Sequence record: NC_010583.1
Length of the DNA stretch: 64,000 nt
From: Escherichia phage Eps7
Strand: one strand, 5' to 3'
A program made the position numbers and the translations under genes. Of the stretch, positions 273-55,215 are shown piece after piece. Positions within the stretch are counted from its first letter, which is position 1. The number at the start of each line of letters is the position of its first letter. The notes beneath the pieces were generated by a model that was not told where the DNA came from, searched no databases, and saw only the letters and a list, made by a program, of their open reading frames with translations.

Positions 273-279
273 AGTTGTT

Positions 280-625: not shown

Positions 626-632
626 ATTTTAT

Positions 633-851: not shown

Positions 852-870
852 ATTATTTCCTTAATTTGTT

Positions 871-946: not shown

Positions 947-952
947 GAATTT

Positions 953-1031: not shown

Positions 1032-1040
1032 AAAATTTAT

Positions 1041-1929: not shown

Positions 1930-1948
1930 TTCCTTATTTTGAGTTAAT

Positions 1949-2021
1949 TGGTACTCGGTGATAGAATCGAACTATCGCAACCGCCGTGTAAAGACGGGGT
2001 TCTCCCATTAAACTAACCGAG
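1949..2021 (-). tRNA. tRNA-Val (anticodon UAC; tentative)
   Basis: T-arm gatag/aatcgaa/ctatc, acceptor actcggt/accgagc, anticodon arm ccgcc-gtgtaaa-gacgg. Confidence 0.55.
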
Positions 2022-2026
2022 CAATT

Positions 2027-2104
2027 TGGTGGATTGCCTGGGATTCGAACCCAGAACTGACGGATTAAAGGTCCGCTACTCTTATCCAGTTGAGCTAGCA
2101 ATCC
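2027..2104 (-). tRNA. tRNA (anticodon not resolved; possibly Lys UUU)
   Basis: T-arm ctggg/attcgaa/cccag, acceptor ggattgc/gcaatcc perfect; anticodon arm ambiguous. Confidence 0.5.
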
Positions 2105-2490
2105 AATTTTTCTACTAATAATTTAAAAGCATCTAGTACAGGTACTTCAAACCATTCTCCAGATACTCTATAATCTTTAAGAAGATTATGTAATTCTTTC
2201 TCTGTACGTCTTTTATCCGACGAAAATCTGAAATGGTATAGCTTGTAGTCTCTATTAGGTGAATAAGTTTGATAACTTGTTAACCTCTCATTCACATCTA
2301 TAGTCATACCTATTTTATACATGCCTGGCCATGCTGGATTACCAATTACATATACAAAACCTTCCGTTATAGGTATTTTATGCTCCCTTTTATACTTTAA
2401 GAGATTTAAGGCTGCCATTCGATAACAGAATCTAAACTCTGAAGTTTTTAACTTACCTTCTTTACCTGAAATTTCGTTATATTTGCTCAT
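2095..2490 (-). CDS. GIY-YIG-like (T5orf172-type) domain protein
   Basis: Motifs GFVYVIGNP...YKIGMT...R...Y...E resemble the GIY-YIG/T5orf172 nuclease fold; embedded in tRNA cluster. Confidence 0.5.
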   Translation of the reverse strand: MSKYNEISGKEGKLKTSEFRFCYRMAALNLLKYKREHKIPITEGFVYVIGNPAWPGMYKIGMTIDVNERLTSYQTYSPNRDYKLYHFRFSSDKRRTEKELHNLLKDYRVSGEWFEVPVLDAFKLLVEKLDC

Positions 2491-2556
2491 ATAAGCTCTT
2501 ATGAGCTTATCATCTATAATGAAGTTATCAGGAAGGTTTAAGGCAGCTAAAAACTT

Positions 2557-2721
2557 TATTAATTAGCATAGACTTCCTTAATAGAATAAACTTTTAAGTT
2601 AAGGTGATTAATACCAAATTCCGCCATCACTTCGTTTTCATCTTTACCGTAATGGGCTAGTGGATACTTCTTACGATCTTTGCTAGAACGTAGATCACTT
2701 ACTTTTAAACGAAATAATTTC
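2557..2721 (-). CDS. hypothetical small protein (54 aa)
   Basis: ATG-initiated ORF MKLFRLKVSDLRS... found by manual translation; below the 60-aa ORF-track cutoff. Confidence 0.3.
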
Positions 2722-2743
2722 ATTTCGAAATCCTTCTATTAAA

Positions 2744-2820
2744 TTGGAAGCGGGTGCAGGAATCGAACCTACCTCTTTCTAGCTTATGAGACTAGCGATC
2801 TCTACCAGAGATCTAACCCG
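2744..2820 (-). tRNA. tRNA with CAU anticodon (Met or Ile-lysidine; tentative)
   Basis: T-arm gcagg/aatcgaa/cctac, acceptor agcgggt/acccgca, anticodon arm ctagc-ttatgag-actag. Confidence 0.55.
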
Positions 2821-2827
2821 CAATTGT

Positions 2828-2906
2828 TTGGTCTCCGTGGGAGGATTTGAACCCCCCGACCCTATCGCCCCAAACGAAACGCTCTGGCCAAACTGAGCTA
2901 CACGGA
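2828..2906 (-). tRNA. tRNA-Pro (anticodon UGG; tentative)
   Basis: T-arm ggagg/atttgaa/ccccc, acceptor ctccgtg/cacggag perfect, D-arm gctc...gagc, loop ccccaaa. Confidence 0.55.
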
Positions 2907-2934
2907 GAATATTCTTTGTTAACTCACTTTATAA

Positions 2935-2992
2935 ATATATTATACAGAGAATTAAGCTAAATAGCAACTACATTTTTAATAAATTTACTTAT
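2935..2992 (-). promoter_or_regulatory. T5-type early promoter cassette driving tRNAs at 2744-2906
   Basis: RC shows -35 GTTGCT, spacer, -10 TATAAT, conserved leader; tRNA begins about 30 nt downstream. Confidence 0.55.
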
Positions 2993-3212
2993 TAGGTAAG
3001 TCACCGAGCTATCAACTCATGCTAGCGAAAGTTTGCGAGACCTTCTTTAAGTACTAGAACACACCCGCCGATGTGTCGGACTTACTTAATAAGTAAACTT
3101 TCGTTTACTTACACCTACCTGGTCGGGAGGATTTTCAGCGACTAGAACCGGCCGGAAACTCATCGCCTTGTTTATCTAGGAGTCCGTTCTCTAGGAAGCA
3201 GAAACCTAAATT

Positions 3213-3287
3213 TGGTGCGGTCGGAGGGAATCGAACCCTCAACTTCTGGTTGGCAACCAAAAAATTATACCTTTTAACTACGAACGC
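3213..3287 (-). tRNA. tRNA-Gly (anticodon GCC; tentative)
   Basis: T-arm gaggg/aatcgaa/ccctc, acceptor gcggtcg/cgaacgc, anticodon arm tctgg-ttggcaa-ccaaa. Confidence 0.55.
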
Positions 3288-3295
3288 ATAATAAG

Positions 3296-3500
3296 TCAAT
3301 CTAGGCAGGACTTGAACCTGCTATCACTTGTGCGGATTTACGAGAACCATTCTTTCACTCGAATCGAACGAGCTTCTACCCTCGGCAAGCTGGTGTCCCC
3401 TCTCCACCACGCTAGAATGATAATTAATGCCTGCTCCTTTGAATCAAGAAGTCCACCCCGGACTTTGGGTCTTTGCAGTACATCACGCTGCTCTGATGTT
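3296..3500 (-). other. tRNA-like elements (T-arm hairpins without complete cloverleaf); possible tRNA pseudogenes or small ncRNA
   Basis: Two strong T-arm-like hairpins (gcagg-acttgaa-cctgc at 3306-3322; actcg-aatcgaa-cgagc at 3357-3373) but no matching acceptor stem found by eye. Confidence 0.3.
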
Positions 3501-3576
3501 TGGTACACCCACTAGGACTTGAACCTAGAACCCTCCGCTTAAGAGGCGGTAGCTCTAACCATTGAGCTATGGATGT
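3501..3576 (-). tRNA. tRNA (possibly Lys, anticodon CUU)
   Basis: T-arm ctagg/acttgaa/cctag perfect, D-arm gctc...gagc, acceptor acaccca/tggatgt, loop ttaagag. Confidence 0.5.
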
Positions 3577-3654
3577 ATTATTATGTTTTGCAGTGCTCTA
3601 AATATAGACACTTCCCACGCGGTGGTTATCTATACCAGCGTCCTGCAAAAATTG

Positions 3655-3731
3655 GCGCGACCGATGGGATTCGAACCCACATTTTCTCCCGTGACAGGGG
3701 AGTACCATTACCAAGCCAGCCCCGATCGCAT
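3655..3731 (-). tRNA. tRNA-Asp (anticodon GUC)
   Basis: T-arm atggg/attcgaa/cccac, acceptor gcgaccg/cgatcgc, perfect anticodon arm ctccc-gtgacag-gggag. Confidence 0.65.
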
Positions 3732-3752
3732 AATTTATTTACTCAGTTTTGA

Positions 3753-3936
3753 GTTTTTCGATAGCTTCCTCAACCTCTTTTAGAGCTTCACGACGGGCAT
3801 TCTGTTGCTGCATATCTTGAATTAATGTCAGTTTTTGTTTTTAATTTCTTGATCCCAAACCTTAATATTATTAATCAGACTATCACGATCAGCTTCTAGT
3901 CGAGCAATTGCACGAGTTGTCATATCTATTTCCTCA
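3753..3936 (-). CDS. hypothetical small coiled-coil protein (about 60 aa, apparent frameshift)
   Basis: Two short adjacent ORFs (MTTRAIARLEADRD... and ...MQQQNARREALKEVEEAIEKLKTE) join across an A5CA5 tract; manual translation only. Confidence 0.25.
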
Positions 3937-4025
3937 GTTATTAATGAAAATGGTATCTGTGACTGAATTCAATATCAGTAATGATAGCTGGTTGGCTACC
4001 GGTTTACTTAACTCTACACAGAATA

Positions 4026-4108
4026 TGGCGGGCCGTGTAGGATTCGAACCTACGTTGTCTTTCGACATGGATTAACAGTCCACCGCCAAACCGCTTGGCT
4101 AACGACCC
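4026..4108 (-). tRNA. tRNA with 13-nt variable arm; anticodon reads GUU (Asn?)
   Basis: T-arm gtagg/attcgaa/cctac perfect, acceptor gggccgt/acgaccc, anticodon arm atgga-ttaacag-tccac, variable hairpin gtc-tttc-gac. Confidence 0.5.
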
Positions 4109-4115
4109 TAAAATT

Positions 4116-4191
4116 TGGACGACCGCATGAGATTCGAACTCACATAAGGAGGTTTTGCAGGCCTCCGCCTAAGCCATTCAGCCAACGGTCG
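4116..4191 (-). tRNA. tRNA-Cys (anticodon GCA; tentative)
   Basis: T-arm atgag/attcgaa/ctcac, acceptor cgaccgc/acggtcg, anticodon arm gaggt-tttgcag-gcctc. Confidence 0.55.
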
Positions 4192-4369
4192 AGTTATCTT
4201 GCTTTTCGAGATTAGTAAACTCTAGATCTTTAGAATGTCCTATAGATCTAGCATAATAGCCATCTCCAGCATCATAGCCTGACTTACCACACTCACACAT
4301 CTTAAACTCTCTATAACGAGTGAAAATATGTTCAGAACCACAACACTTAAATTTAACTAACATTTTCAT
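4178..4369 (-). CDS. Cys-rich small protein (63 aa), putative zinc ribbon
   Basis: KFKCCGSEH...CECGKSG cysteine pattern; 3' end overlaps tRNA by about 14 nt. Confidence 0.4.
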   Translation of the reverse strand: MKMLVKFKCCGSEHIFTRYREFKMCECGKSGYDAGDGYYARSIGHSKDLEFTNLEKQDNSTVG

Positions 4370-4608
4370 TTAACACGCTCCGGTAAATCTTCGAGTTTAT
4401 ATTGAGTAGCCACATTAGCAGCATCTAGTAACAAACCCATATGTTTAAGAATCCTAGTGATAGCTTCGCCTTCTGCTTCTTCTACAAAAGTGCGTAGTTG
4501 AATGAAGTCAATACCACCATCCATACCAGAGAAAATGTTAAGTAAGCGAAGCATTACCAGCTTACGTTCTTTTAATTCTTGTTCTGCCATGTTGCTTCTC
4601 CAGTTCAA
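4366..4608 (-). CDS. hypothetical protein (80 aa)
   Basis: ORF directly downstream of promoter cassette 4625-4672; ATGA overlap with next gene. Confidence 0.45.
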   Translation of the reverse strand: MNWRSNMAEQELKERKLVMLRLLNIFSGMDGGIDFIQLRTFVEEAEGEAITRILKHMGLLLDAANVATQYKLEDLPERVK

Positions 4609-4624
4609 TTTATGTAATAATTAT

Positions 4625-4672
4625 ACAGAACTTTAAGGATTTAAGCAACTACATTTTTCAGAAATTTGATGC
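4625..4672 (-). promoter_or_regulatory. T5-type early promoter cassette
   Basis: RC: -35 GTTGCT, -10 TATAAT, conserved leader. Confidence 0.5.
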
Positions 4673-4928
4673 CTTTCTTTTTCTTCTTATACTTCCACGT
4701 TAATGGATTCTGTCGATTATGAACGCTTGAGATCTTTGTCTCGTCAAATTTCTTCAATACCATGTAATCACACGCCAACTGCTCTAGTGGAATGGTTTCT
4801 CCATCAAAAGCATAAACATAAGGCTGTTGACTAGCACGATAATGATAGACTTTGTTAACTCTACGTTTCAGCGACTTATCCGCGCAGTAAATAAAGAAGT
4901 TTTCAGGATGCATCAGCATCTCCTTCAA
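4641..4928 (-). CDS. hypothetical protein (95 aa)
   Basis: ORF; lysine-rich C-terminus overlaps the downstream promoter cassette. Confidence 0.4.
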   Translation of the reverse strand: MKEMLMHPENFFIYCADKSLKRRVNKVYHYRASQQPYVYAFDGETIPLEQLACDYMVLKKFDETKISSVHNRQNPLTWKYKKKKKGIKFLKNVVA

Positions 4929-5011
4929 ATTGGTGCAACCTGTACGTAACGATCGTACCTCTTCTCCTTTTCAGGGAGACGCTAATCCATCTCAGCTAAA
5001 GTCGCAAATAT

Positions 5012-5088
5012 TGGCAAACCTACTAGGACTCGAACCTAGACCGTACGGTTTTGGAGACCGACATGCTGTCCAGTAACACTCTAGGAAT
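5012..5088 (-). tRNA. tRNA-Trp (anticodon CCA; tentative)
   Basis: T-arm ctagg/actcgaa/cctag perfect, anticodon arm acggt-tttggag-accga; acceptor pairing imperfect. Confidence 0.5.
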
Positions 5089-5096
5089 GCAGAAAT

Positions 5097-5172
5097 TGGC
5101 GTCCTGTGCGGGGATCGAACCCGCAAATCCTACCTTGAAAGGGTAGTGACTTTACCAGTTTGTCTAACAGGA
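5097..5172 (-). tRNA. tRNA-Glu (anticodon UUC)
   Basis: T-arm gcggg/gatcgaa/cccgc, acceptor gtcctgt/acaggac perfect, anticodon arm ctacc-ttgaaag-ggtag perfect. Confidence 0.65.
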
Positions 5173-5180
5173 CTTAAATT

Positions 5181-5271
5181 TGGTGTTGGATGATGGAGTC
5201 GAACCACCCGAGACCCTTCCGAGTCGGCAGATTTACAGTCTGCTTCGCTACCTCTACGATACTAATCCAAC
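5181..5271 (-). tRNA. tRNA-Tyr (anticodon GUA, type II)
   Basis: T-arm gatgg/agtcgaa/ccacc, acceptor gttggat/atccaac perfect, anticodon arm gcaga-tttacag-tctgc perfect, long variable arm. Confidence 0.65.
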
Positions 5272-5416
5272 ATATTTGAATGAAAAATAAGTCGGTTAAA
5301 CTCAAGGTGGAATATTTCAGGAAATCCTGACTTTACCCCTAAAAGCAACTCGCTTAGTTACTTCTCATTCAGATATGTTTTCCAAATTAGATAACTATTA
5401 TATCAAGTTTTGAAGG

Positions 5417-5452
5417 ACTGAGCAAGTCAAATTTTAAAGAACTTGCTCAGTG
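5417..5452 (-). terminator. intrinsic terminator hairpin (11-bp stem)
   Basis: actgagcaagt ... acttgctcagt inverted repeat immediately downstream of the 5462-5737 gene. Confidence 0.45.
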
Positions 5453-5461
5453 CTATATCAG

Positions 5462-5737
5462 TTACTCGAAGCTAGGAGTGACACTCAGTTTGAATGGAAG
5501 CTCGAACACTTCTTCATAATCATCATTGAGCGTAATTACACGACCTTCTAGCTTAGTCATGGTGATTTCGATATCAGCCTCTGCATCAGGAGCCATACCA
5601 GCTTCCACACATTTAGCTTTGACTTCCGGCAGAAGTTCTACATCGTAGAAATAAAGCCATTCAATCTCACCTTCCCAGCCACCCCAGGATTTACAAACAG
5701 CACTTTCAACACCAGTTGCAGTAACACGTTTTGACAT
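5462..5737 (-). CDS. hypothetical protein (91 aa)
   Basis: ORF downstream of promoter cassette 5775-5815. Confidence 0.5.
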   Translation of the reverse strand: MSKRVTATGVESAVCKSWGGWEGEIEWLYFYDVELLPEVKAKCVEAGMAPDAEADIEITMTKLEGRVITLNDDYEEVFELPFKLSVTPSFE

Positions 5738-5774
5738 TCGTTAACTCCTTCATCAATTTATATAACTATTATAG

Positions 5775-5815
5775 CAGAAATCTTAAGTAAAAAGCAAGTA
5801 CATTTTTAAAATTTC
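5775..5815 (-). promoter_or_regulatory. T5-type early promoter cassette
   Basis: RC: -35 CTTGCT, -10 TATAAT, conserved leader. Confidence 0.5.
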
Positions 5816-5827
5816 TGCTTGGAGGAG

Positions 5828-6034
5828 TTAAACTCCTGATTCTTCAGCCAGATCAAGCCCAACCAACGTGATTGCCATAATAGCCGCGCCATGTTCTTTC
5901 TCTCCTAGCTCTTTGGCTTGAGTGAGAATATTTAGGAACTGCTTTTGAAAATCTGCAACTTCTTCTGTCATGCCTGCTTCAGCAATAATTCCTTTCAGCA
6001 TAAAGCGTTGTGCCGTAATTTCAGGATTAGCCAT
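5828..6034 (-). CDS. hypothetical protein (68 aa)
   Basis: ORF. Confidence 0.45.
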   Translation of the reverse strand: MANPEITAQRFMLKGIIAEAGMTEEVADFQKQFLNILTQAKELGEKEHGAAIMAITLVGLDLAEESGV

Positions 6035-6185
6035 TTATTATCTCCAGTTATTTAGAATGTAAGCCAAACTTAGGATCATAGCGATCGTAAGTCGTACCAT
6101 TAGTTGAAGCCTTGATGCTATGAAAACGACAGTACATAAATTTACGTAGTGCTTTCTTAATAGCTTTCATTTTATTTCCTTAATT

Positions 6186-6262
6186 TGGTAGGGGTGGTGG
6201 GATTCGAACCCACAAAACCTGAATTTTAAGTCCAGTACCTATGCCAATTCGATTACACCCCC
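6186..6262 (-). tRNA. tRNA (anticodon reads UAA, Leu-like but type I; uncertain)
   Basis: T-arm gtggg/attcgaa/cccac perfect, acceptor aggggtg/caccccc, anticodon arm ctgaa-ttttaag-tccag. Confidence 0.5.
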
Positions 6263-6280
6263 ATGTAATCTTAGCGAATC

Positions 6281-6603
6281 TCTAAACCCTGGAAATATCG
6301 AGGGAATGGAGAGCCAACTTCAAAATTGATGCCCCAATTAAGTTCAACGAGTTCAGATTTATTAAGATCTAGGCCATTACCTTCAAAGATATAGCCGTAA
6401 ACCGCAGGGAACATAGCTGCTAGATCTTCCATATCGGAATGAGCATTGTGTTCTTCACGGAACTGCTCAACTCTTCAATAGAACTTTTCTAGGAGACTCA
6501 GGTACGATGAACGTTACCACATCAGTAGAATCATCGGTACGATACACCGTAGCTTGGAACAAGCCAACACCTAAAAGGTTTATTGCCGGAGTAGTAAAAA
6601 TAT
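6281..6603 (-). CDS. hypothetical protein (about 107 aa, apparent +1 frameshift near 6470)
   Basis: Two sub-threshold ORFs (MDIFTTPAINLLG... and ...EQFREEHNAHSDMEDLAAMFPAVYGYIFEGNGLDL...) in adjacent frames. Confidence 0.3.
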
Positions 6604-6608
6604 CCATC

Positions 6609-6794
6609 TTAGCCTCGCTCAATGTCTAGACAAATTGCATATTCAGGGTTGATACCAGTACCTTTACATGTAGGACATTCCCATTCTCTACAGAAAATAT
6701 CCCCAGGTTCTGCATCATCCTGCCTACCACTACCATGACAGTCCTTACACCGACATTCTTCTAATGCTTTCTTCATTTCATAGAATCTAGACAT
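6609..6794 (-). CDS. DnaJ-type zinc-finger mini-protein (61 aa)
   Basis: Two CxxCxGxG motifs (CKDCHGSG, CPTCKGTG) plus additional Cys pairs. Confidence 0.45.
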   Translation of the reverse strand: MSRFYEMKKALEECRCKDCHGSGRQDDAEPGDIFCREWECPTCKGTGINPEYAICLDIERG

Positions 6795-6811
6795 ATAGTC
6801 TCCTAGTTAAT

Positions 6812-6889
6812 TGGTGGCTCCCGGAGGATTCGAACCTACCTACCTTTCGCTTATGAGGCGACGGCTCATACCAAATGAGCTTGAGAACC
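6812..6889 (-). tRNA. tRNA with CAU anticodon (Met or Ile-lysidine; tentative)
   Basis: T-arm ggagg/attcgaa/cctac, D-arm gctc...gagc, anticodon arm ttcgc-ttatgag-gcgac. Confidence 0.55.
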
Positions 6890-6894
6890 AAATT

Positions 6895-6988
6895 TGGAGG
6901 AAGATGCCAGATTCGAACTGGCACACCGTGTCTCCACAGCTACTGGCTGTTTAGCAAACAGCTCCCTTACCTTTAGGGTTAATCTTCC
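6895..6988 (-). tRNA. tRNA-Ser (anticodon GCU, type II)
   Basis: T-arm gccag/attcgaa/ctggc perfect, acceptor ggaagat/atcttcc perfect, anticodon arm gctgt-ttagcaa-acagc perfect, long variable arm. Confidence 0.65.
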
Positions 6989-6999
6989 GAATTTATGAA

Positions 7000-7045
7000 T
7001 ATATTATACAGAAAATTTCGGCATTAAGCAAGTGAAATTTTACTG
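7000..7045 (-). promoter_or_regulatory. T5-type early promoter cassette driving tRNAs at 6812-6988
   Basis: RC: -35 CTTGCT, -10 TATAAT, conserved leader. Confidence 0.5.
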
Positions 7046-7336
7046 AACATTGCACTGATATACTTGTTTGATACGTGTCACTGACTTCTTAGTTGGGTTG
7101 ATAGAAGAACCCTGCCACCAACGTGATTCTGAGCTGAGAACAGCCCCAGGAACAGCTTGTTCTTTTGGCAGAACAATATCAAAACACTGTTCACCCATAT
7201 TATCTTTAATGTGCGACCAAATGTCTAGAGTAAATCGTTCTAGCTTATTACAAACTTGAACTTGACAAAGTTCCTGTTGTGGAGCAGCAAATACAGAAGT
7301 AGATACTAGAGTCAATGCAAGTACAATGCGTTTCAT
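7040..7336 (-). CDS. secreted/periplasmic protein with signal peptide (98 aa)
   Basis: MKRIVLALTLVSTSVFA signal peptide then Cys-containing mature part; the ORF-track MREESN prefix is read-through of the conserved leader. Confidence 0.5.
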   Translation of the reverse strand: MKRIVLALTLVSTSVFAAPQQELCQVQVCNKLERFTLDIWSHIKDNMGEQCFDIVLPKEQAVPGAVLSSESRWWQGSSINPTKKSVTRIKQVYQCNVQ

Positions 7337-7362
7337 ATTTGATTCCTCTCTCAAATTTATAA

Positions 7363-7400
7363 ATATATTATACAGAAATTTTCTATATAAGCAAGGTAAA
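7363..7400 (-). promoter_or_regulatory. T5-type early promoter cassette
   Basis: RC: -35 CTTGCT, 17-nt spacer, -10 TATAAT, leader ...TTTGAGAGAGGAATCAA then ATG. Confidence 0.55.
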
Positions 7401-7436
7401 AATTTATGTATATAGCCCTCTAAGCGAGGGCTATAA
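7398..7436 (-). terminator. intrinsic terminator
   Basis: Hairpin tatagccctc-taagc-gagggctata followed on the minus strand by a U-run. Confidence 0.5.
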
Positions 7437-7441
7437 CTACT

Positions 7442-8134
7442 TTATTTGTTAACGCGTACAAAGTATCCTTTATAGGCTCCCATAATAGAGTTACCTAAGA
7501 ATACTAGCCACATTGCTAGGATTGCATAAGATGCACCTGTAGATTGAGCAGTTACAAGCCAAATGTACACAGTACCAATGTTAATAGCAATCCAAATCAG
7601 CCATTGTTCAGCATATTGTTTGACCATAAGCCACATAGCAATCACACTACCTACCGCAGTAAATGCATCCAACATTGGGAATGGATCAGCCGTAGTAGCA
7701 AGGAAACTACCATAACCTAACGTGGCTACTGCTAAAATCCCTAGAGTCAGCAAAGCTTGAGCTTTTGTCAGAACTTTAGTTGGAACATCCGGCAGATTAC
7801 TTGGCTTATTTTTATGCCATAAGTACATTCCATAAAACTGCATAGGAACGTAGTATAGCAGGTTTAGTGCAGCGTTACCATAAAGATCTGCGTTTAAAGC
7901 TGTAATACCATATGTAAGAACACCCACTAAGCCCCAAATATAGTTGGAAACACGTCCTTTTGCAACCAGAATAACACAAACCACATTGGTTATTGCAGTA
8001 GCCCAATCTAGAGCTGTACCATTATAGTTTGCTAAACTAATAAAGGCGACTGCTATAAACAGCCACAGATATTCCAGAGGTTTCCAGTTTTTAAAGTCAT
8101 TTACGAGATAGTTAGTCATATTAAAACTCTCCAA
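7442..8134 (-). CDS. pnuC: nicotinamide riboside transporter PnuC-like membrane protein
   Basis: 230-aa polytopic membrane protein; GMYLWHK and VKQYAEQWLIWIAINI match PnuC signatures GWYAW and RKYVENWLLWVIINV. Confidence 0.65.
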   Translation of the reverse strand: MESFNMTNYLVNDFKNWKPLEYLWLFIAVAFISLANYNGTALDWATAITNVVCVILVAKGRVSNYIWGLVGVLTYGITALNADLYGNAALNLLYYVPMQFYGMYLWHKNKPSNLPDVPTKVLTKAQALLTLGILAVATLGYGSFLATTADPFPMLDAFTAVGSVIAMWLMVKQYAEQWLIWIAINIGTVYIWLVTAQSTGASYAILAMWLVFLGNSIMGAYKGYFVRVNK

Positions 8135-9176
8135 AGATAAAGTGATGAATCAGCCAGTCTACTGCGTTTACTGCTTCGTCCATACGAACTTTGTAGTCCG
8201 GAGAGTCGATGTAAACAGTACGCCCTTCAGGGAACTGATTTGGAAATTCTTTCTTCATCTGCTCGAACAGTTCAGAAGTAATTGAACGATCGGAGTTAAT
8301 ACGTAAACCATCATCTACCCACTTGACAGTAGGCGCTAGAACAATTACTAAATCGTAATGTTCTTCTTTTGCAATTGCTGTAACCACAGGGTTCTTACTA
8401 TGTTCATAAAGTCTGTGGTAGAACTCAGTAATAAAAGCATTTGTATCCACAAACATGATCTTATTTGCAGTACGTTTTGCTTCAAACTCTAGCTCTTTGT
8501 GTCTGAACGCAATTTTACTATAGTCTTCGCTGGTAAGCAGATTTTCGTTACCAACTAGATCAACTTCACAATACGTTCGGCCATATTCTTTTACCCACGA
8601 AGTGTTGTATAGCTTCGCAAGGTATTTTGTTAAAGTAGTCTTTCCTGAGCTTTCAGTCCCAATGATTACAACCTTACGCACGTAATCTTTACGAACTACG
8701 CTAGGAAGAAACTCCCAATACTTCATAAGATCATTACGAATCATTGTAGCTGAGATTGGAACACGAGTCCGATCAGAATCTACAATATAATGACCAAACT
8801 TCGGCAGATATTTCTTATATTCTGCATCATAGTCTAGTTCGCTAGAGAAAATGGTGATCTCAGGCAAATGTCCGTAATTTTCATTAAGGATTCTAGCATA
8901 TTCCGGCCAACCATTCGGATATTCAGGAATATCATCTTCAATAATGTACTCTACCGAAATGTGCTCAATATCCGCGTAAGTTTGTTCTAACCAACGAAGT
9001 CGATTCTTTAACTGTAATACTTCCTGATCACGTGTGTTCTGCTTATCCAGCCAACGATTATCATGACTAACTACAACAATAACTCGTTCACACATAGTTG
9101 CTGCTGTGTTTATTAGGTTAATATGACCACGCGTTAATGGCGCGAACTTACCAATTACTAGACCAGTCTTAATCAT
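8121..9176 (-). CDS. nadR: NadR-like bifunctional NMN adenylyltransferase / ribosylnicotinamide kinase
   Basis: N-terminal nucleotidyltransferase motif GKFAPLTRGH (HxGH), C-terminal P-loop GTESSGKTT; true start MIKTGL (track MREESN prefix is leader). Confidence 0.65.
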   Translation of the reverse strand: MIKTGLVIGKFAPLTRGHINLINTAATMCERVIVVVSHDNRWLDKQNTRDQEVLQLKNRLRWLEQTYADIEHISVEYIIEDDIPEYPNGWPEYARILNENYGHLPEITIFSSELDYDAEYKKYLPKFGHYIVDSDRTRVPISATMIRNDLMKYWEFLPSVVRKDYVRKVVIIGTESSGKTTLTKYLAKLYNTSWVKEYGRTYCEVDLVGNENLLTSEDYSKIAFRHKELEFEAKRTANKIMFVDTNAFITEFYHRLYEHSKNPVVTAIAKEEHYDLVIVLAPTVKWVDDGLRINSDRSITSELFEQMKKEFPNQFPEGRTVYIDSPDYKVRMDEAVNAVDWLIHHFIFGEF

Positions 9177-9202
9177 ATTTGATTCCTCTCTCAAATTTAT
9201 AA

Positions 9203-9250
9203 ATATATTATACAGAGAATTTAGCGTTCAAGCAATCGAATTTTTAAACT
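9203..9250 (-). promoter_or_regulatory. T5-type early promoter cassette (drives nadR-pnuC)
   Basis: RC: -35 ATTGCT, -10 TATAAT, conserved leader with GAGAGAGGAATCAA RBS. Confidence 0.55.
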
Positions 9251-9384
9251 TTTTAGTGGAAAAATCTCAAGGCATTTAGTGGTAGCACGTTGTTGCTACA
9301 ATAATAGTATATGTATTACTAAAGTAAATAAAGAATTAAATACTAAAGACCTTAGTTGAATAACTTATGGGCTTTTCTTTTGCC

Positions 9385-9428
9385 TTAAATACAGAAAAGC
9401 CCGCGCTCTCGGAGGAAACGCGGGCTTG
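9385..9428 (-). terminator. intrinsic terminator (possibly bidirectional)
   Basis: GC-rich hairpin aagcccgcg...cgcgggctt with flanking T/A runs. Confidence 0.5.
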
Positions 9429-9546
9429 GTTCGAAGATTACGTGTAACTATTACTTGTTACGCATATCCATGATCATTTGACCATCGTAGCCAGTACCAA
9501 CAACAGTCTGCGGTACACCACCTTGTATTTTTCAGCACGAAGCATT

Positions 9547-10395
9547 TCAAACTTCCAGCTGCTTCCAACGAATCATTTCAGGAGTAATGGTACGTTGCAG
9601 CGCGGCGTTAGCTTCAGCTTCTTTCTTAGCTGCGTACAGTTTAGCATCTGCGTCACGTTCGTTAGCTACTGCCATGTTTTCACGAGCAGAACGATCAGCT
9701 TCAGCTTGCTTAACTTTCTGCTGTGCTTCTTGTTCAACACGAGCCAATTCAGCTTTAGCGGCGTTAACTTGTTCTTCACGAACTTTTGTGTTTTGTACCT
9801 GTTCCATGATTACAGGTGGCAGAGTAATATCCTGAAGGAATACTTGCTTAACCGTGTAACCATAAGGACGCGCGTACTCTTCTACTTCTTGCTGAATAGC
9901 AGTTTGCAGTTGAGCCTGAATCTTAGCGTCGAACAGATCTTGTGCTTTTGGTACAGACTTACCAAACTCACGAATCGTAGATAGCATCTTCTCTTCAACG
10001 TACTTGTTCAGAGCTTGATCCTGAGTACCTGCGTTAACACGGTTCATAGGAGCTTTAGCACCATCAAACTGCAACATAACGGTAATGTCAACAGTGGACT
10101 TAAACTTATCCTGGCTAGGAACCTGAAGTTTATCCAGTTTCATGGAAATATCTTTCGTACTAAAAGTATCAAAAGAAGCAAATGGGTTAACAATATGGAA
10201 GCCTGGCAATACAGGATTAGGGCTAACTTTACCCAGGAAGGTTTGGGTCTTAACAGTACCATCCTGAACAACTGTGTAGGAATTGAGAGCCAGAATAAGA
10301 GCGCCAAGACCAACTACAGCACCAACACCCCAACGTTTGATAGTGCGAATTACTTTTTGCTCAGAAGTCAGTTCTTTAGTGTTTTTAGTAAACAT
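9547..10395 (-). CDS. SPFH/band-7 (stomatin/prohibitin/HflC-like) domain protein; C-terminus probably extends to about 9451
   Basis: N-terminal TM segment, SPFH-like core, Ala/Glu/Gln-rich coiled-coil tail; two in-frame stops within 30 nt flanking an open alternative frame. Confidence 0.6.
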   Translation of the reverse strand: MFTKNTKELTSEQKVIRTIKRWGVGAVVGLGALILALNSYTVVQDGTVKTQTFLGKVSPNPVLPGFHIVNPFASFDTFSTKDISMKLDKLQVPSQDKFKSTVDITVMLQFDGAKAPMNRVNAGTQDQALNKYVEEKMLSTIREFGKSVPKAQDLFDAKIQAQLQTAIQQEVEEYARPYGYTVKQVFLQDITLPPVIMEQVQNTKVREEQVNAAKAELARVEQEAQQKVKQAEADRSARENMAVANERDADAKLYAAKKEAEANAALQRTITPEMIRWKQLEV

Positions 10396-10406
10396 ATATT
10401 TCCTTA

Positions 10407-10607
10407 TTATTTAGAAGAGTTAGCTACTACAGTTACTTTAGTTGCAGAAATAAACAGGCTAGCATCCACAGCAAATTCAGGAGCTTTGATATCTCCATTA
10501 TGAAATATGACTATACCGGAGACTACTTCAAATGCTAGTGCTGTAACATCGGTGGTATTTACTTGTGAATGTTCACCTACTACTTTTACTATATATCGTG
10601 TTTTCAC
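10407..10607 (-). CDS. NfeD-like short OB-fold protein (66 aa), partner of SPFH protein
   Basis: Beta-rich 66-aa protein (YIVKVVGEHSQV...) immediately upstream of and co-oriented with the SPFH gene. Confidence 0.4.
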   Translation of the reverse strand: MKTRYIVKVVGEHSQVNTTDVTALAFEVVSGIVIFHNGDIKAPEFAVDASLFISATKVTVVANSSK

Positions 10608-10633
10608 TTTATTTTCCTAGCAGTTAATAAAAT

Positions 10634-10709
10634 TGGCCGAGGTGACAGGATTCGAACCTGCATAAAGGAATTTAGAAGACTCCTGCCTATCCCTTAGACT
10701 ACACCCCGT
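10634..10709 (-). tRNA. tRNA-Arg (anticodon UCU; tentative)
   Basis: T-arm acagg/attcgaa/cctgc, acceptor cgaggtg/caccccg, anticodon arm ggaat-ttagaag-actcc. Confidence 0.6.
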
Positions 10710-51310: not shown

Positions 51311-51753
51311 TTAAAATTAAACTAACTCATCCAGATTGCATGCCGAAGATTGGTTCTGATGATGCCGCAGGTATGGATCTGCGTGCATTCTTCGGTACTA
51401 ACCTTGCAGCAGATTTACGTGCTATTGCACCAGGCAAATCCCTTATGATTGACACCGGTGTCGCGGTGGAAATTCCGCGAGGTTGGTTTGGTTTGGTAGT
51501 TCCTCGCAGCTCTTTAGGTAAGCGTAAACTGATGATCGCAAACACCGCAGGAGTGATCGACTCAGACTACCGTGGTACTATTAAGATGAACCTTTATAAC
51601 TACGGTTCTGAAATGCAAACTCTGGAGAATTTCGAGAGACTTTGTCAGCTAGTGGTACTACCACACTATTCAACCCATCATTTTGAAATCGTTGACGAAC
51701 TAGAGGAGACTGATCGTGGAGAAGGCGGCTTTGGAAGCTCAGGAAGTAAATAA
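51307..51753 (+). CDS. dut: dUTP diphosphatase (dUTPase)
   Basis: Motifs AAGMDLRA, RSSLG, GVIDSDYRG, C-terminal GGFGSSG. Confidence 0.8.
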   Translation: MIKIKLTHPDCMPKIGSDDAAGMDLRAFFGTNLAADLRAIAPGKSLMIDTGVAVEIPRGWFGLVVPRSSLGKRKLMIANTAGVIDSDYRGTIKMNLYNYGSEMQTLENFERLCQLVVLPHYSTHHFEIVDELEETDRGEGGFGSSGSK

Positions 51754-51982
51754 TTTTGCTGATCCTAATATGGTAGGGGTAGATGTAGACCAACCTAATT
51801 TTTGCAAGATTGATATTAAATACGTTGAACCTGAGAAAATAGTATTGAGGGTTGATGTATCTGGTGTAGTAGAACAGTGGGATGAAGAAGGATTTATCGC
51901 ACTTTGCACTGAATCTCAAGATCATATGCTTAAAGCCATGCTAGCAGTATATAACTTAGGTAGTATTGCAGGTAGTAGATAA
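51716..51982 (+). CDS. hypothetical protein (start uncertain)
   Basis: ORF overlapping dut 3' end; alternative ATG at 51769. Confidence 0.35.
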   Translation: MEKAALEAQEVNNFADPNMVGVDVDQPNFCKIDIKYVEPEKIVLRVDVSGVVEQWDEEGFIALCTESQDHMLKAMLAVYNLGSIAGSR

Positions 51983-51987
51983 TAATA

Positions 51988-52018
51988 AACCCCAGTGGAC
52001 AATCCACTGGGGTTTTCT
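51988..52018 (+). terminator. intrinsic terminator ending the plus-strand replication cluster
   Basis: aaccccagtgga-caa-tccactggggtt then TTTCTCTTATTT. Confidence 0.6.
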
Positions 52019-52100
52019 CTTATTTAGTAAGGAGTTGTTTTACTAATTCCTTTATTTTATTAATCTTTTTTTTTTTGAAAGGGTGCAAAACGAACCTCTT

Positions 52101-52128
52101 GCATTTTGCATTTTGCATTTTGCGTTTT
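52101..52128. repeat. tandem heptamer repeat (GCATTTT) x4 in convergent intergenic region
   Basis: gcattttgcattttgcattttgcgtttt; preceded by a T11 run at 52066-52076. Confidence 0.6.
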
Positions 52129-52264
52129 CATATTGTACATAAGAACAGCCTAAGAATCAGCGAACTGTTAACATAGCAGAACACGCGTTGCGTTGCTAGG
52201 ATAATCAATGTTCAGGCTTGTTTCGCAGCAATATTTTTCAGTGACAGATTGCACTCCACTTATA

Positions 52265-55215
52265 TTATGGTAGTTCTGTAATTGTTGGAGCATTTCCGTT
52301 AAGCATTGATTTTACAAGGTTTTTCAGTTCATATAACTCATTGCGTAATACGTTAATTTCCTCCTGTTGATTATCAATCTTTGCTTTTTGCTCTTTGAAT
52401 GCGTTAACAAGAAGTGCGACAACACCATTATAGTTAATGCCTTTGATTGCCTCGCCTTTTGGGTCTAGCTGACCATCGTTATTCAAAGAATGAACCGCTT
52501 CCGGCAAAACCCTTTCAACATCTTGTGCGATCAATCCAGCCTCAATACTATAAACGCTGTTTTCATCTTCAATTAGATTGTTGCGCTTGTAGTAAGTATA
52601 ACCAGTTAGATAATCAATTTTGTCGGATGCCGTTTCGATCTCTTTTAGATGTGCTTTTAATCTAATGTCAGACCTGCTAACCCAATTTGATGCGCTACCA
52701 TTTCCAGCACTATCAAAAATAAAGTCAGCGCCCTTAACATAAAGATGTGTTTCAGCGCCGCCAGAAGTCCACGGAACAACATCCATGCCAGCTATCCAAT
52801 CTTTCCCCAATAAACAGATTTAAATATGGCAACCGCAGAATCAAATCCAATGTGCTCAACAAGCAATCCAGACGCACGACTACGCCAGTCGGCAAATGAA
52901 CCACCCTCAACTTGACCAGCAATAAGAGCGTTTGGATCACCGCGCCTAACTCCATTTACATACATACCCCTTGCGTTATCATCAACATAAGATGATATGA
53001 CCCTGTAAGTGTTTATTCCTGATGGAGTCCATGCAAATATTCTCGCTGAATCAGCAAACGCGCTTATGTGACCATCACGATCCCATTTAAGACCTGAATC
53101 ATGATCCCCAATTGCTATAGAGTAATCACCAAGAGCCGATTGAGCATCCGGACTTAATAACATCAATTGCCTATCAGATCTTGCTATCCTGTACCATCCA
53201 CCCCAAGAGCCAGCACTGCAAATGATACCCCATTTATTACCGTTCATTGCGGTTGCAACAATATTTCCATACTCAACATGACCGTTTGCATTTTTACCGT
53301 GAACATGCAATTCATACATCCACCAACCAGAGGCTTCAGGTGGTTGATATGTAACAAGTTCTCCGCTTGAGTAATAACCGCTTTCTGCGTATGTTGACAT
53401 AAACCCAAGAATGTTTGAATTATTAGGAATAATAATTGCTTGACCACCAACAGGAGTATTTAAGTTCTTTCTTGCTCCAACTTCAGTATTAGATCCAGTG
53501 CCGCCAGCATCAATTGAAAGAGGAATCCATCTTCCAGTTTCATCAGTCCAAACACCCCACGCCGCATCAGGTCTAATTGTGATTCGATAAGGTGAGTTAC
53601 TCCCTGGTGCATACATCATAGTTTCTGTTTCTGTTTGCTTTAAACGATCAATGCCAAAGTTTATTTTTGCGCCCTCAACGTTTTCAGCACCAGTACCGCC
53701 AGCACCAATAGAAAGCGCAGATGTGCTGTTATTGTCATTACGCGCAACGCGCCATTCCCCATTGTTAGCGATCCGTAATTCATAAGTCCATGCAGGATTA
53801 CGAAAAGAATTATAAGCGCCAGCATATTGATCTTTTACAGAATTAACAGCCTCAACTTTTAGCGCCTCCCTTGCAAGGTCTTTGTTTGCAAGATCATTAA
53901 GGTTCTGATCCTTCTTTAACGACGCTTGCATAACCTGTTCTGCTGATGCAGCCGCTGTCTCCGCTCTATCTGCTGCACTGGTGGCATTAGTAGCTTTCTC
54001 TCCTGCTATTGTAGCGCTACCAGCGGCCTCCAGGGCCTTGTCTGTTGCTGTCGTTGCAGCAGTAGTGGCGGTATTTTTAAATACCTCTGCTTCGTCTCTG
54101 TAGCCTTTGGTTGTGGTCATCGCTTGCGTAGCTGTATTCGCACTACCTGATGCACTTTGCTGAGCTAGCTTAGCAGCGTCTTCACTAGCTTTTGAGTTAA
54201 TTTCACTAGTCTTTGTATTAGTTTCTGAGTTTTTTGCTGCTAATGCTGATGTGGAGGCTTGTGCAGCGAATGCTTCTGCTTCATCCCTGAATCCTTTGGA
54301 GTCAGAAGCAGAGGCAGCGGAATCAGCAGCATTAGTCTCACTAGTTTTTGCTGCTGCTGCATATGCTGCTGCATTAGTCTCACTAGTTTTTGCATTAGTC
54401 TCACTAGTTTTTGCATTAATCTCACTAGTTTTTGCTGCAGCTGATGATTCTATAGCAGTAGTTTCACTAATTTTTGCTGCAGCTGATGATTCTGCAGCTT
54501 TAGTAGCGGATGCAGCAGATTGAGAAGCAGAAATAGCAGACTGAGAAGCAGAAGCTTCAGAAGCTTCAGCAGAAATAGCAGATTCATTCTCAGAATTCTT
54601 AGCATTAAGTTCTGAAGTCTTAGCAGCTATCTCGGAGTCTTTTGCAGTAGTAGCGTATTCTCCCGCCTCTGTAGCAGAACCAGCAGCAGCAATAGCCTGA
54701 TTGGTAGACTCAGTAGCAGATGTAGCAGCATTTTGCTCAGAAGTAGCAGCAGCAGTCTTAGCAGCCTCAGCGTCCTTCTTAGCTTGTTCAGCTAATAGAC
54801 GACTCTGTTCAGCATTTTGTGCAGCAAGTTCAGCAGAATCACGGAATCCTTTGGATTCCTCAGCTGACGTAGCAGAGGCATCAGCACTATCTTTAGATAA
54901 ACCAGCTTGTCTCTCCGCTTCAGTAGCAGAAGCAGCAGATTGAGTTGCAGAAGTTTCTGAAGAGTTAGCGTAAATTGCAGCTAGGTTCTCCGAGTCCTTA
55001 GCATTTGTTTCAGATTCTTTTGCTGCAATTTCAGAATCTTTTGCTGCCGCAGCAGAAGCAGCAGAGGCCTCAACAGCCCCTGTTAGTTCACTAGCAGTAA
55101 TAGAACTAATAGAAGTACCTAAAACTACCGTATACTTAGGATATTTACTAGCAGTAGTTGTAGTGTCATCTATGTTCAGAATCTGCTGTACAATAATTTT
55201 AGTTTTAAGTGCCAT
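52265..55215 (-). CDS. ltf: L-shaped tail fibre protein with C-terminal intramolecular chaperone (peptidase S74-like) domain; frameshift at C4 tract 52805-52808
   Basis: N-terminal repetitive AK.SE.NAK.SE fibre shaft, central beta-rich region, C-terminal chaperone motifs (SDIRLKAHLKEI...DYLTGYTYYKRN...SIEAGLIAQDVERVLPEAV); two ORFs join across the tract. Confidence 0.7.
54371..54500. repeat. in-frame tandem DNA repeats inside tail-fibre gene
   Basis: 21-nt unit gcattagtctcactagttttt x3 (54371-54433), then tgctgcagctgatgattct x2; encodes repeated TSETNAK-type peptide units. Confidence 0.7.

What the first reader, a model, noticed from the sequence alone, without database searches (positions are those of the whole stretch)
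52021..52264. Convergent early/late junction with T11 run and (GCATTTT)4 repeat
The 240-nt gap where plus-strand replication genes meet minus-strand tail genes contains a plus-strand terminator, an 11-T homopolymer (52066-52076), an inverted repeat (tgcaaaa...ttttgca) and four tandem GCATTTT heptamers. This could be a bidirectional terminator zone or a protein-binding site; the heptamer array is the only clear microsatellite-like repeat in the window.
Basis: seen in the sequence. Interest (0 to 1): 0.35.

Follow-up and report, generated by a model that had tools for sequence, protein, structure and literature searches.

The report
Gene relics beside a phage terminator
The T-run and heptamer repeat lie in decaying leftovers of two old genes, stacked next to a conserved two-way transcription terminator in a T5-like Salmonella phage, and they change in length between close relatives, so this is an ordinary recombination scar and not a regulatory site.

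Summary
The sequence features are real. T11 is at 52066-52076, and GCATTTT x3 plus GCGTTTT is at 52101-52128. The window is an Epseptimavirus (T5-like, 99.7% identical to Salmonella phages BSP22A and Seafire).

The 282-nt gap (51983-52264) resolves into four parts:
1. 51987-52015: a hairpin whose stem is invariant across T5-likes. Its T5 counterpart is annotated as an efficient bidirectional rho-independent terminator.
2. 52020-52064 (-): the last 14 codons and stop of an older tail-fibre gene.
3. 52066-52076: the T-run, at the junction of the two relics.
4. 52078-52254 (-): a pseudogene fragment of PHROG 9288, a gene that sits intact downstream of the tail-fibre gene in T1-like phages. tblastn gives E 4e-13, with two in-frame stops.

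The heptamer array is a slippage expansion of a single AAAATGC inside this dead coding sequence. There is no array in intact homologues. Among T5-like relatives the copy number is 1, 2, 3 or 4. The T-run ranges from 11 to 23 among relatives that share its pure form. There is no Rfam match, no significant fold and no promoter above chance.

Only the terminator is likely to be functional. Interest is low.

The parts
51716..51982 (+). Last early-strand ORF (88 aa). It is the homologue of T5.132 and belongs to DUF7369 / PHROG 5592. Its stop defines the left edge of the gap.
   Evidence: ORF list. Pfam DUF7369 at 4.9e-30 and phrog_5592 at 2e-40. Annotated as a hypothetical protein in Seafire and T5.
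51987..52015 (.). Bidirectional intrinsic terminator hairpin: 13-bp stem (AAACCCCAGTGGA / TCCACTGGGGTTT), 3-nt loop, and T-rich tails on both strands. This is the only part of the gap likely to be functional.
   Evidence: Called on both strands by the terminator scan. Seafire annotates a terminator on both strands. T5 RefSeq annotates the counterpart as an 'efficient bidirectional rho-independent transcription terminator'. The stem is invariant in T5 and 7 diverse T5-likes. It accounts for the fold z-scores of -3.5 and -3.2 over the whole gap, which vanish when it is left out.
52020..52064 (-). Relic 1: the stop codon (52020-52022) and last 14 codons of an earlier L-shaped tail-fibre gene that ended directly against the terminator. 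It reads INKIKELVKQLLTK*. A weak AT-rich hairpin on the + strand falls inside it.
   Evidence: The minus-frame translation KINKIKELVKQLLTK* compares with the live tail-fibre C-termini EIDELKKLVKQLLDK* (L008) and EIEELKELVNQLLTK* (L003, L005). These end at the same distance from the terminator. Ungapped identity is 35/48 and 32/48 nt, against a null of 13.5 +/- 3.1 with a maximum of 26 in 20,000 random 48-mers. DNA similarity of other T5-likes runs through the terminator into this stretch.
52066..52076 (.). T11 (A11 on the gene strand): a slippage-prone homopolymer at the junction between relic 1 and relic 2.
   Evidence: Exact run, and the only one of 8 or more in the window. Lengths in relatives that share the pure run: 11 (window), 12, 13, 14, 15, 18, 18, 23, plus about 17 in SB9. 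In S147-type, GRNsp8 and PMBT31 genomes the run is short or interrupted (AGAAAAAAA, AATAAAAAA, AGTAAAAAA).
52078..52254 (-). Relic 2: a pseudogene fragment of a PHROG 9288 gene (about codons 145-202 of 233-238). It is truncated at both ends and carries two in-frame stop codons. It lies between the tail-fibre stop codon and the terminator, so the late transcript probably reads through it (inferred).
   Evidence: tblastn with the intact proteins of Drexlerviridae phages grams (gp60) and PHB07 gives E 4e-13 and 2e-13, 49-51% identity, two stops and a 5-residue insertion at the heptamers. DNA identity to the annotated CDSs of those phages is 78-80%. S147-type Epseptimaviruses keep codons 1-204 with the same two stops plus a third.
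52101..52128 (.). Heptamer array GCATTTT x3 plus GCGTTTT (AAAACGC then AAAATGC x3 on the gene strand): a slipped-strand expansion inside relic 2. The TGCAAAA/TTTTGCA inverted repeat is a by-product of the array lying next to the old 'R-F-A' codons CGTTTTGCA.
   Evidence: Intact genes read ATGAAAGCGCAATTGCAAGAGG with no repeat. S147-type genomes have one AAAATGC, and GRNsp8 and PMBT31 have one variant unit. SB10 has 2 and fuchur is inferred to have 2 from a match 7 nt shorter. Window, Seafire, faergetype, SH9, 1-29, BD13 and SB9 have 3. MET_P1_137_112 has 4. TRF score 53.
52265..55215 (-). L-shaped (lateral) tail-fibre gene with a C-terminal Peptidase_S74 intramolecular chaperone domain. Its stop defines the right edge of the gap. 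In this window it is split into 807-aa and 181-aa ORFs by a 1-nt deletion in a C-run.
   Evidence: ORFs. PHROG tail-fibre families and Pfam PF13884. Seafire carries a single 984-codon CDS (983 aa plus stop). The window has C4 at 52805-52808 against C5 in Seafire, faergetype and SH9, and adding one base restores one 983-aa ORF. The C-terminal 170 aa are 77% identical to the lateral tail fibre of Hanrivervirus JakobBernoulli.

Best explanation
The gap between the early (+) and late (-) gene blocks of this T5-like Epseptimavirus holds one functional element and a stack of recombination scars.

The functional element is the conserved bidirectional intrinsic terminator hairpin at 51987-52015. It ends both the early transcript (after the DUF7369 ORF) and the late tail-fibre transcript.

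- Relic 1 (52020-52064) is the last 14 codons and stop of an older tail-fibre gene that once abutted the terminator.
- Relic 2 (52078-52254) is a fragment of a PHROG 9288 gene. In T1-like phages (Drexlerviridae, Tempevirinae) this gene sits just downstream of the lateral tail-fibre gene.

Inferred history: a foreign 'tail fibre + PHROG 9288' cassette replaced most of the old fibre gene. The PHROG 9288 copy lost its 3' end and acquired nonsense mutations. A later fibre swap in this lineage removed its first ~144 codons.

Freed from selection, the A-rich junction became a pure homopolymer (T11 on the + strand), and one AAAATGC unit expanded by replication slippage to three copies. Both tracts now vary in length like neutral microsatellites.

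The RNA consequence is probably only that the tail-fibre mRNA carries a ~250-nt untranslated tail.

What is shown and what is inferred:
- Shown: the homologies, the stop codons, the copy-number variation and the hairpin conservation.
- Inferred: the order of the recombination events, the neutrality of the tracts, and actual termination at the hairpin.
For: Identity of the phage: 99.7% to Salmonella phages BSP22A and Seafire.

Terminator: called on both strands; annotated as bidirectional in Seafire and in T5; stem invariant in eight divergent T5-likes.

Relic 2:
- tblastn E 4e-13 and 2e-13 to intact 233-238-aa proteins, with two in-frame stops.
- The homologous DNA lies inside annotated CDSs directly downstream of the tail-fibre gene in grams, PHB07 and JakobBernoulli.
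- Of 176 phage records carrying this DNA, the listed matches at about 73-80% identity lie in annotated CDSs of Drexlerviridae and Sashavirus, and 129 records (T5-likes among those listed) cover at least 80% of it.
- S147-type relatives keep codons 1-204 with the same two stops, a third stop, and frameshifts at a poly-A tract.

Relic 1: KINKIKELVKQLLTK* against live fibre C-termini; 35/48 nt identical against a null maximum of 26; same offset from the terminator.

Repeat history: no array in intact genes; 1, 2, 3 or 4 copies among relatives; T-run 11-23.

Other tests: no Rfam family near threshold. Fold z-scores without the hairpin are -1.27 and +0.25. Promoter-like sites are at chance level and none falls in 52016-52240. 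The window's fibre C-terminus is 77% identical to a Hanrivervirus fibre that is followed by the PHROG 9288 gene. Published work describes the LTF locus of T5-likes as reshaped by recombination (PMC10644984).
Against: - No transcript data: termination at the hairpin and read-through of the relics are inferred.
- The relic is 86-88% conserved between two Epseptimavirus lineages. This is compatible with recent common descent but does not by itself exclude weak constraint.
- Some homopolymer length differences among database genomes could be sequencing errors rather than biological variation.
- Neutrality of the T-run and array was not tested experimentally.
- The order of the recombination events is a parsimony argument from about 20 genomes.
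Confidence: 0.85

Rival explanations
1. The heptamers are iteron-like binding sites for a phage or host protein, with the T-run as an easily melted AT-rich element. Together they would act as a replication origin, packaging signal or operator.
For: Four tandem units next to an 11-nt T-run superficially resemble an iteron plus an unwinding element. No perfect 3-copy 7-mer array occurred in 200 shuffles.
Against: - The array is a recent expansion of one unit inside a pseudogene. It is absent from intact homologues and from S147-type and GRNsp8-type relatives that share the same flanks.
- Copy number varies from 1 to 4 and the T-run from 11 to 23 among close relatives.
- T5 and most T5-likes lack the whole segment, with only the terminator conserved.
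- No initiator gene is adjacent.
Confidence: 0.03
2. The relic region is a functional 3' UTR or a small RNA derived from it. Alternatively, the weak AT-rich hairpin plus T-run is a second, backup + strand terminator. In either case tract length would tune tail-fibre mRNA stability or read-through.
For: - The segment lies between the fibre stop and the terminator, so it is probably transcribed with the fibre gene.
- A 9-bp AT-rich hairpin (about 52030-52053) is followed by a U-rich stretch ending in U11 on the + strand.
- The relic is 86-88% identical across two lineages.
Against: - No Rfam match near any gathering score.
- Folding without the main hairpin is no better than shuffles: z -1.27 and +0.25.
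- The backup hairpin has too few G-C pairs to be called by the terminator scan.
- Length hypervariability and shared nonsense mutations fit neutral decay.
- A 14-nt change in array length between relatives argues against a defined structure.
Confidence: 0.06
3. The gap encodes small proteins. Candidates are the 41-aa ORF at 52168-52293 (-) and the ORFs that some database records annotate here.
For: An ATG-initiated 41-aa ORF exists. BD13, SB10, SB9 and PMBT31 records carry 'hypothetical protein' calls in this gap.
Against: - The calls differ in position and strand from one annotator to another. Seafire, faergetype and 1-29 annotate none.
- The 41-aa ORF starts inside the fibre gene in another frame, and its first part cannot exist in S147-type phages, whose fibre 3' end is different.
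- The reading frame homologous to real proteins is broken by stops.
Confidence: 0.03

Closest known systems
Phage T5 bidirectional rho-independent terminator between T5.132 and ltf (NC_005859 81641-81680)
   Same: Same position, at the convergent junction after dut and the small DUF7369 ORF and before the end of the tail-fibre gene. Same stem sequence CCCCAGTGGA/TCCACTGGGG.
   Different: In T5 the terminator is followed by an annotated + strand promoter and the antisense ORF T5.134, and then by the ltf stop. The window has no homologue of that promoter segment and instead carries the two gene relics. Loop sequence and orientation differ among relatives.
PHROG 9288: uncharacterised 233-238-aa protein encoded downstream of the lateral tail-fibre gene in Drexlerviridae (for example phage grams gp60 YP_009901854 and PHB07 AVQ09773)
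   Same: The minus strand of window 52078-52254 is homologous to codons ~145-202, in the same place relative to a tail-fibre gene.
   Different: The window copy lacks the first ~144 and last ~30 codons, and has two in-frame stops and a repeat expansion. It is a pseudogene fragment, not a family member in any functional sense. The family has no Pfam, NCBIfam or PDB match.
Mosaic recombination scars and defective remnants at phage tail-fibre loci. From general knowledge: the frameshifted stf of laboratory lambda and module swapping in T-even fibres. For T5-likes: LTF variants attributed to recombination (PMC10644984).
   Same: Successive replacement of the host-range module leaves partial genes behind. 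Here one module is shared between Demerecviridae and Drexlerviridae.
   Different: The scars here sit in the 3' untranslated region next to a terminator. They have secondarily spawned a microsatellite and a homopolymer.
Simple-sequence contingency (phase-variation) loci
   Same: A short-unit repeat and a homopolymer whose lengths differ among near-identical genomes.
   Different: Contingency repeats lie within a reading frame or a promoter, so that length switches expression. These lie downstream of the fibre stop codon in dead sequence, with no gene to switch.

Membership tests
Bidirectional intrinsic (rho-independent) terminator | G+C-rich hairpin followed by a T/U-rich tract on both strands | tested here: met
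   13-bp stem with 7 G-C pairs and a 3-nt loop at 51987-52015. Tails are TCTCTTATTT (+) and ATTATTATCT (-). The minus-strand tail is the weaker of the two.
Bidirectional intrinsic (rho-independent) terminator | Located between convergent transcription units and conserved among relatives | tested here: met
   Lies between the last + strand ORF and the - strand fibre gene. The stem is invariant in T5 and 7 T5-likes. Annotated as bidirectional in T5 and Seafire.
Bidirectional intrinsic (rho-independent) terminator | Transcripts from both strands actually end there | not testable with these tools
   Needs Term-seq or 3' RACE. The only support is the wording 'efficient' in the T5 record.
Pseudogene relic of PHROG 9288 | Significant translated similarity to intact family members | tested here: met
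   tblastn E 4e-13 and 2e-13 with 49-51% identity over ~58 codons. 78-80% DNA identity to annotated CDSs.
Pseudogene relic of PHROG 9288 | Reading frame destroyed (stops, truncation, indels) | tested here: met
   Two in-frame stops, no start, codons 1-144 and ~203-233 missing, and a 15-nt net insertion at the heptamers. The same stops occur in S147-type copies.
Pseudogene relic of PHROG 9288 | Conserved gene order with the intact gene's context (downstream of a lateral tail-fibre gene) | tested here: met
   In grams, PHB07 and JakobBernoulli the fibre gene is followed 160-180 nt later by the PHROG 9288 gene. The window's fibre C-terminus is 77% identical to JakobBernoulli's.
Relic of an older tail-fibre 3' end | Similarity to live fibre C-termini at the same offset from the terminator | tested here: met
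   35/48 and 32/48 nt identical against a null maximum of 26/48. The peptide KINKIKELVKQLLTK* compares with ...ELKKLVKQLLDK* and ...ELKELVNQLLTK*. The stretch is short, so support is weaker than for relic 2.
Iteron / origin-type protein-binding repeat array | Repeat number and spacing conserved among relatives | tested here: not met
   1, 2, 3 or 4 units among Epseptimaviruses, and absent in T5 and most T5-likes.
Iteron / origin-type protein-binding repeat array | Specific protein binding | not testable with these tools
   Needs EMSA or footprinting.
Simple-sequence contingency locus | Length polymorphism among close relatives | tested here: met
   Heptamers 1-4 and T-run 11-23. Some homopolymer differences may be sequencing error.
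Simple-sequence contingency locus | The repeat lies in an ORF or promoter, so that length changes switch a gene | tested here: not met
   Both tracts are downstream of the fibre stop, in a frame already broken by stops. No promoter was called in 52016-52240.
Structured non-coding RNA | Match to a known family, or a fold better than shuffles | tested here: not met
   The best Rfam hit is 26 bits against a gathering score of 49, and it spans the terminator. Without the terminator, z is -1.27 and +0.25.

The most novel reading that the evidence does not exclude
The slippery homopolymer and heptamer tract at the junction of the two relics may not be merely passive. It could be a preferred site of illegitimate recombination and tandem duplication that helps tail-fibre cassettes move between T5-like (Demerecviridae) and T1-like (Drexlerviridae) phages.

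Supporting hints: phage SB9 has a perfect 298-nt tandem duplication (T-run, relic, and fibre 3' end) whose junction is at the A/T run. Phage bobsandoy also carries two copies. The fibre tip here is 77% identical to a Hanrivervirus fibre.

A weaker variant is that T-run length tunes read-through into the terminator, and thereby fibre mRNA stability.
Probability: 0.08. Interest if true: 0.35.

Novelty: new member of a known kind. Interest (0 to 1): 0.12.

Why it matters
The main value is for annotation and triage. About 130 T5-like genomes in GenBank carry this segment. They label it as nothing, as a 'repeat_region', or as assorted spurious 'hypothetical proteins'. It should be annotated as a pseudogene fragment plus an old fibre 3' remnant beside a conserved bidirectional terminator.

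It also gives a readable record of at least two successive host-range (tail-fibre) module replacements, with one module shared between two phage families. And it provides a natural marker (heptamer copy number and T-run length) for telling very close Epseptimavirus isolates apart. It does not open a new mechanism.

Tried and rejected
- Rfam scan of 51500-52800 at E up to 10 gave only sub-threshold hits centred on the terminator.
- tRNA/tmRNA scan found nothing in the gap. All 21 tRNAs lie at 183-10708.
- Promoter scan found sites at chance level (7 found, 7.4 expected), none in 52016-52240. TTGCAT/TATTGT spacings of 12, 19 and 26 nt do not fit sigma-70, and they shift by 7 with each repeat unit.
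- RNA folding of the gap gave z -3.5 and -3.2, but this is due entirely to the terminator. Without it, z is -1.27 and +0.25.
- Searching IMG/VR for an exact flank pattern returned only 2 contigs, and a search with the upstream ORF returned 7 loci. I therefore sampled relatives from GenBank instead.
- Characterising the parent family (PHROG 9288) found no Pfam, NCBIfam or PDB relative. The only PDB hits were non-significant compositional matches (E about 0.05) of its Gly-rich N-terminus to influenza HA2.
- Literature searches found no description of this relic. They found only general statements that LTF loci of T5-likes recombine.
- I looked for a homologue of T5's annotated promoter and antisense ORF T5.134 in the gap. 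There is none.

Full report
**What the window is.** A 2.5-kb query around the finding matches 449 phage records. The best matches are Salmonella phages BSP22A and Seafire at 99.7% identity (Demerecviridae, Epseptimavirus, T5-like). Gene order is as in T5. D13, D14, flap endonuclease D15, dUTPase and a small ORF (51716-51982, DUF7369, the T5.132 homologue) lie on the + strand. They converge on the L-shaped tail-fibre gene on the - strand, which ends at 52265. The 'convergent early/late junction' is therefore correct.

**The observation.** Direct reading confirms the features.
- T11 is at 52066-52076.
- GCATTTT is at 52101-07, 52108-14 and 52115-21, followed by GCGTTTT at 52122-28. This is three perfect copies plus one variant.
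- The inverted repeat is TGCAAAA (52084-90) and TTTTGCA (52104-10).
- TRF reports period 7, 4.3 copies, score 53.
- T11 is the only homopolymer of 8 or more in 64 kb. The array is the longest of only three perfect 3-copy repeats with units of 4-9 nt. No 7-mer x3 array arose in 200 shuffles, whereas an A/T run of 11 or more arose in 15.5% of them.
- Corrections: the gap is 282 nt (51983-52264), and the strong terminator hairpin lies at 51987-52015, just outside the stated start.

**The terminator.** The hairpin AAACCCCAGTGGA-caa-TCCACTGGGGTTT is called on both strands. Seafire annotates it as a terminator on both strands. In T5 its counterpart is annotated as an 'efficient bidirectional rho-independent transcription terminator'. 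Its stem is invariant in T5 and seven divergent T5-likes, while the loop varies. Whole-gap fold z-scores of -3.5 and -3.2 come from this hairpin alone.

**Relic 2, the key result.**
- A sensitive DNA search with the gap unexpectedly hit ~50-kb T1-like phages (Drexlerviridae: grams, PHB07, vojen, egaa and others) at 77-80% identity, inside annotated CDSs.
- In those phages the CDS is a 233-238-aa hypothetical protein lying 160-180 nt downstream of the lateral tail-fibre gene. It belongs to PHROG 9288, of unknown function, with no Pfam, NCBIfam or PDB relative.
- tblastn of these proteins against the window aligns residues ~145-202 to the minus strand of 52066-52254 (E 4e-13 and 2e-13, 49-51% identity). 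The alignment has two in-frame stop codons and a 5-residue insertion exactly at the heptamers.
- In the nucleotide alignment the intact genes read ATGAAAGCGCAATTGCAAGAGGCTCGTTTTGCA. The window reads ATGAAAACGC-AAAATGC-AAAATGC-AAAATGC-AAGAGGTTCGTTTTGCA.
- The array is therefore an expansion inside former coding sequence. The TGCAAAA/TTTTGCA inverted repeat arises only because the repeated unit lies next to the old CGT-TTT-GCA codons.

**A decay series in relatives.** S147-type Epseptimaviruses (vaffelhjerte, vB_SenS-3, MET_P1-88, ende, bux) retain the gene from its ATG to about codon 204. Their copy has three in-frame stops and frameshifts at a variable poly-A tract. The two downstream stops are the same two seen in the window (annotation). 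Pseudogenisation therefore preceded the split of these lineages. In the window lineage a different fibre 3' end now abuts codon ~145, 10 nt after the fibre stop. That fibre C-terminus (170 aa, including the Peptidase_S74 chaperone domain) is 77% identical to the lateral tail fibre of Hanrivervirus JakobBernoulli, whose fibre gene is itself followed by PHROG 9288.

**Relic 1.** Between the terminator and the T-run, the minus strand reads KINKIKELVKQLLTK-stop (52020-52064). In other T5-likes the live fibre gene ends at the same offset from the terminator, with EIDELKKLVKQLLDK-stop (L008) or EIEELKELVNQLLTK-stop (L003, L005). Ungapped identity is 35/48 and 32/48 nt. The null from 20,000 random 48-mers is 13.5 +/- 3.1 with a maximum of 26. 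This is the stump of an older fibre gene.

**The T-run.** It sits exactly at the junction of relic 2 (...TCTCAG) and relic 1 (AAAGATTAAT...). In S147-type, GRNsp8 and PMBT31 genomes the junction reads AGAAAAAAA, AATAAAAAA or AGTAAAAAA. In the Seafire/BSP22A clade it is a pure run of length 11, 12, 13, 14, 15, 18, 18 or 23, with about 17 in SB9.

**Variability of the array.**

| AAAATGC copies | Genomes |
|---|---|
| 1 | six S147-type genomes; a variant single unit in GRNsp8 and PMBT31 |
| 2 | SB10; fuchur (inferred from a match 7 nt shorter) |
| 3 | window, Seafire, faergetype, SH9, 1-29, BD13, SB9 |
| 4 | MET_P1_137_112 |

Sources. The segment occurs in 176 phage records. It is absent from T5 and most T5-likes, which share only the terminator and the first few dozen bases beyond it.

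**Other functions tested.**
- No Rfam family comes near threshold.
- No tRNA lies in the gap.
- Without the terminator the fold is no better than shuffles.
- Promoter-like sites are at chance level and none lies inside 52016-52240.
- ORF calls in this gap differ between database records in position and strand.
- T5's annotated promoter and antisense ORF T5.134 in the equivalent gap have no homologue here.

**Mechanism (inferred).** Both convergent transcripts probably end at the conserved hairpin. The late fibre mRNA would then carry a ~250-nt untranslated tail made of two gene relics. The homopolymer and heptamer array arose and fluctuate by replication slippage in unconstrained DNA. The history is at least two fibre-cassette replacements, one involving a cassette of the kind found in T1-like phages. 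Published comparisons also attribute LTF diversity in T5-likes to recombination (PMC10644984).

**Verdict.** The features are real and the explanation is ordinary: a previously unannotated pseudogene fragment and fibre stump beside a known terminator. The most novel reading not excluded is that the slippery junction acts as a recombination or duplication hotspot. SB9 carries a perfect 298-nt tandem duplication joined at the run, and bobsandoy has two copies. I rate this at about 8%.

Noticed in passing
window 52805-52808 (tail-fibre gene 52265-55215, - strand): The window has C4 where Seafire, faergetype and SH9 have C5. This 1-nt deletion splits the 983-aa tail fibre into 807-aa and 181-aa ORFs, just upstream of the Peptidase_S74 chaperone domain. 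Adding one base restores a single ORF. It is either a sequencing error or a natural fibre-truncation mutant.
   Followed up: yes
window 51999-52003 (terminator loop); L003, L005, L006, L012-L015: The terminator loop is reverse-complemented between close relatives (GGA-CAAT-CC versus GGA-TTGT-CC) while the stem stays identical. This suggests inversion of the hairpin by recombination between its arms. ende and H8 show odd poly-G extensions of the stem that look like assembly errors.
   Followed up: partly
L021:730-1304 (Salmonella phage SB9); also phage bobsandoy: A perfect 277-nt direct repeat at 298-nt spacing duplicates the T-run, the PHROG 9288 relic and ~100 nt of the fibre 3' end in tandem. 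The junction lies at the A/T run, at a short AAATTAA-like microhomology.
   Followed up: partly
L012:1291-1620, with the same coordinates in L013-L015 and the equivalent ORF in L024 (S147-type Epseptimaviruses): The 109-aa 'hypothetical protein' annotated downstream of the fibre gene in these phages is the N-terminal fragment of the same PHROG 9288 pseudogene, cut by a shared nonsense codon at position ~110. A poly-A tract near codon 153 varies from 6 to about 15.
   Followed up: yes
L010:2360-3061(-), L011:2363-3076(-), L026:2827-3531(+) (Drexlerviridae): PHROG 9288 is an uncharacterised family that lies next to the lateral tail-fibre gene in the three Drexlerviridae loci inspected. It has a Gly-rich hydrophobic N-terminus, a CCC motif and a C-terminal TGCCG(C). 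It has only non-significant (E about 0.05) resemblance to influenza HA2 fusion-peptide regions and no Pfam, NCBIfam or PDB match. BASEL annotates part of it as a 'putative sugar-binding protein'.
   Followed up: partly
L027:3736-4327 (phage T5 81735-82326): T5 carries an annotated + strand promoter and an antisense ORF (T5.134) running into the 3' end of ltf, with a long rho-dependent terminator annotated. This Epseptimavirus has nothing homologous at that position.
   Followed up: partly
window 54181-54569 and 55008-55057: Imperfect tandem repeats of period 21/42 nt (74-94% matches) inside the tail-fibre gene, probably coding repeats of the fibre shaft. faergetype annotates repeat_regions in its tail-fibre gene.
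   Followed up: no
window 183-10708 (- strand): A cluster of 21 tRNA genes, typical of T5-like phages. It includes duplicated tRNA-Ala(tgc) and two tRNA-Met.
   Followed up: no
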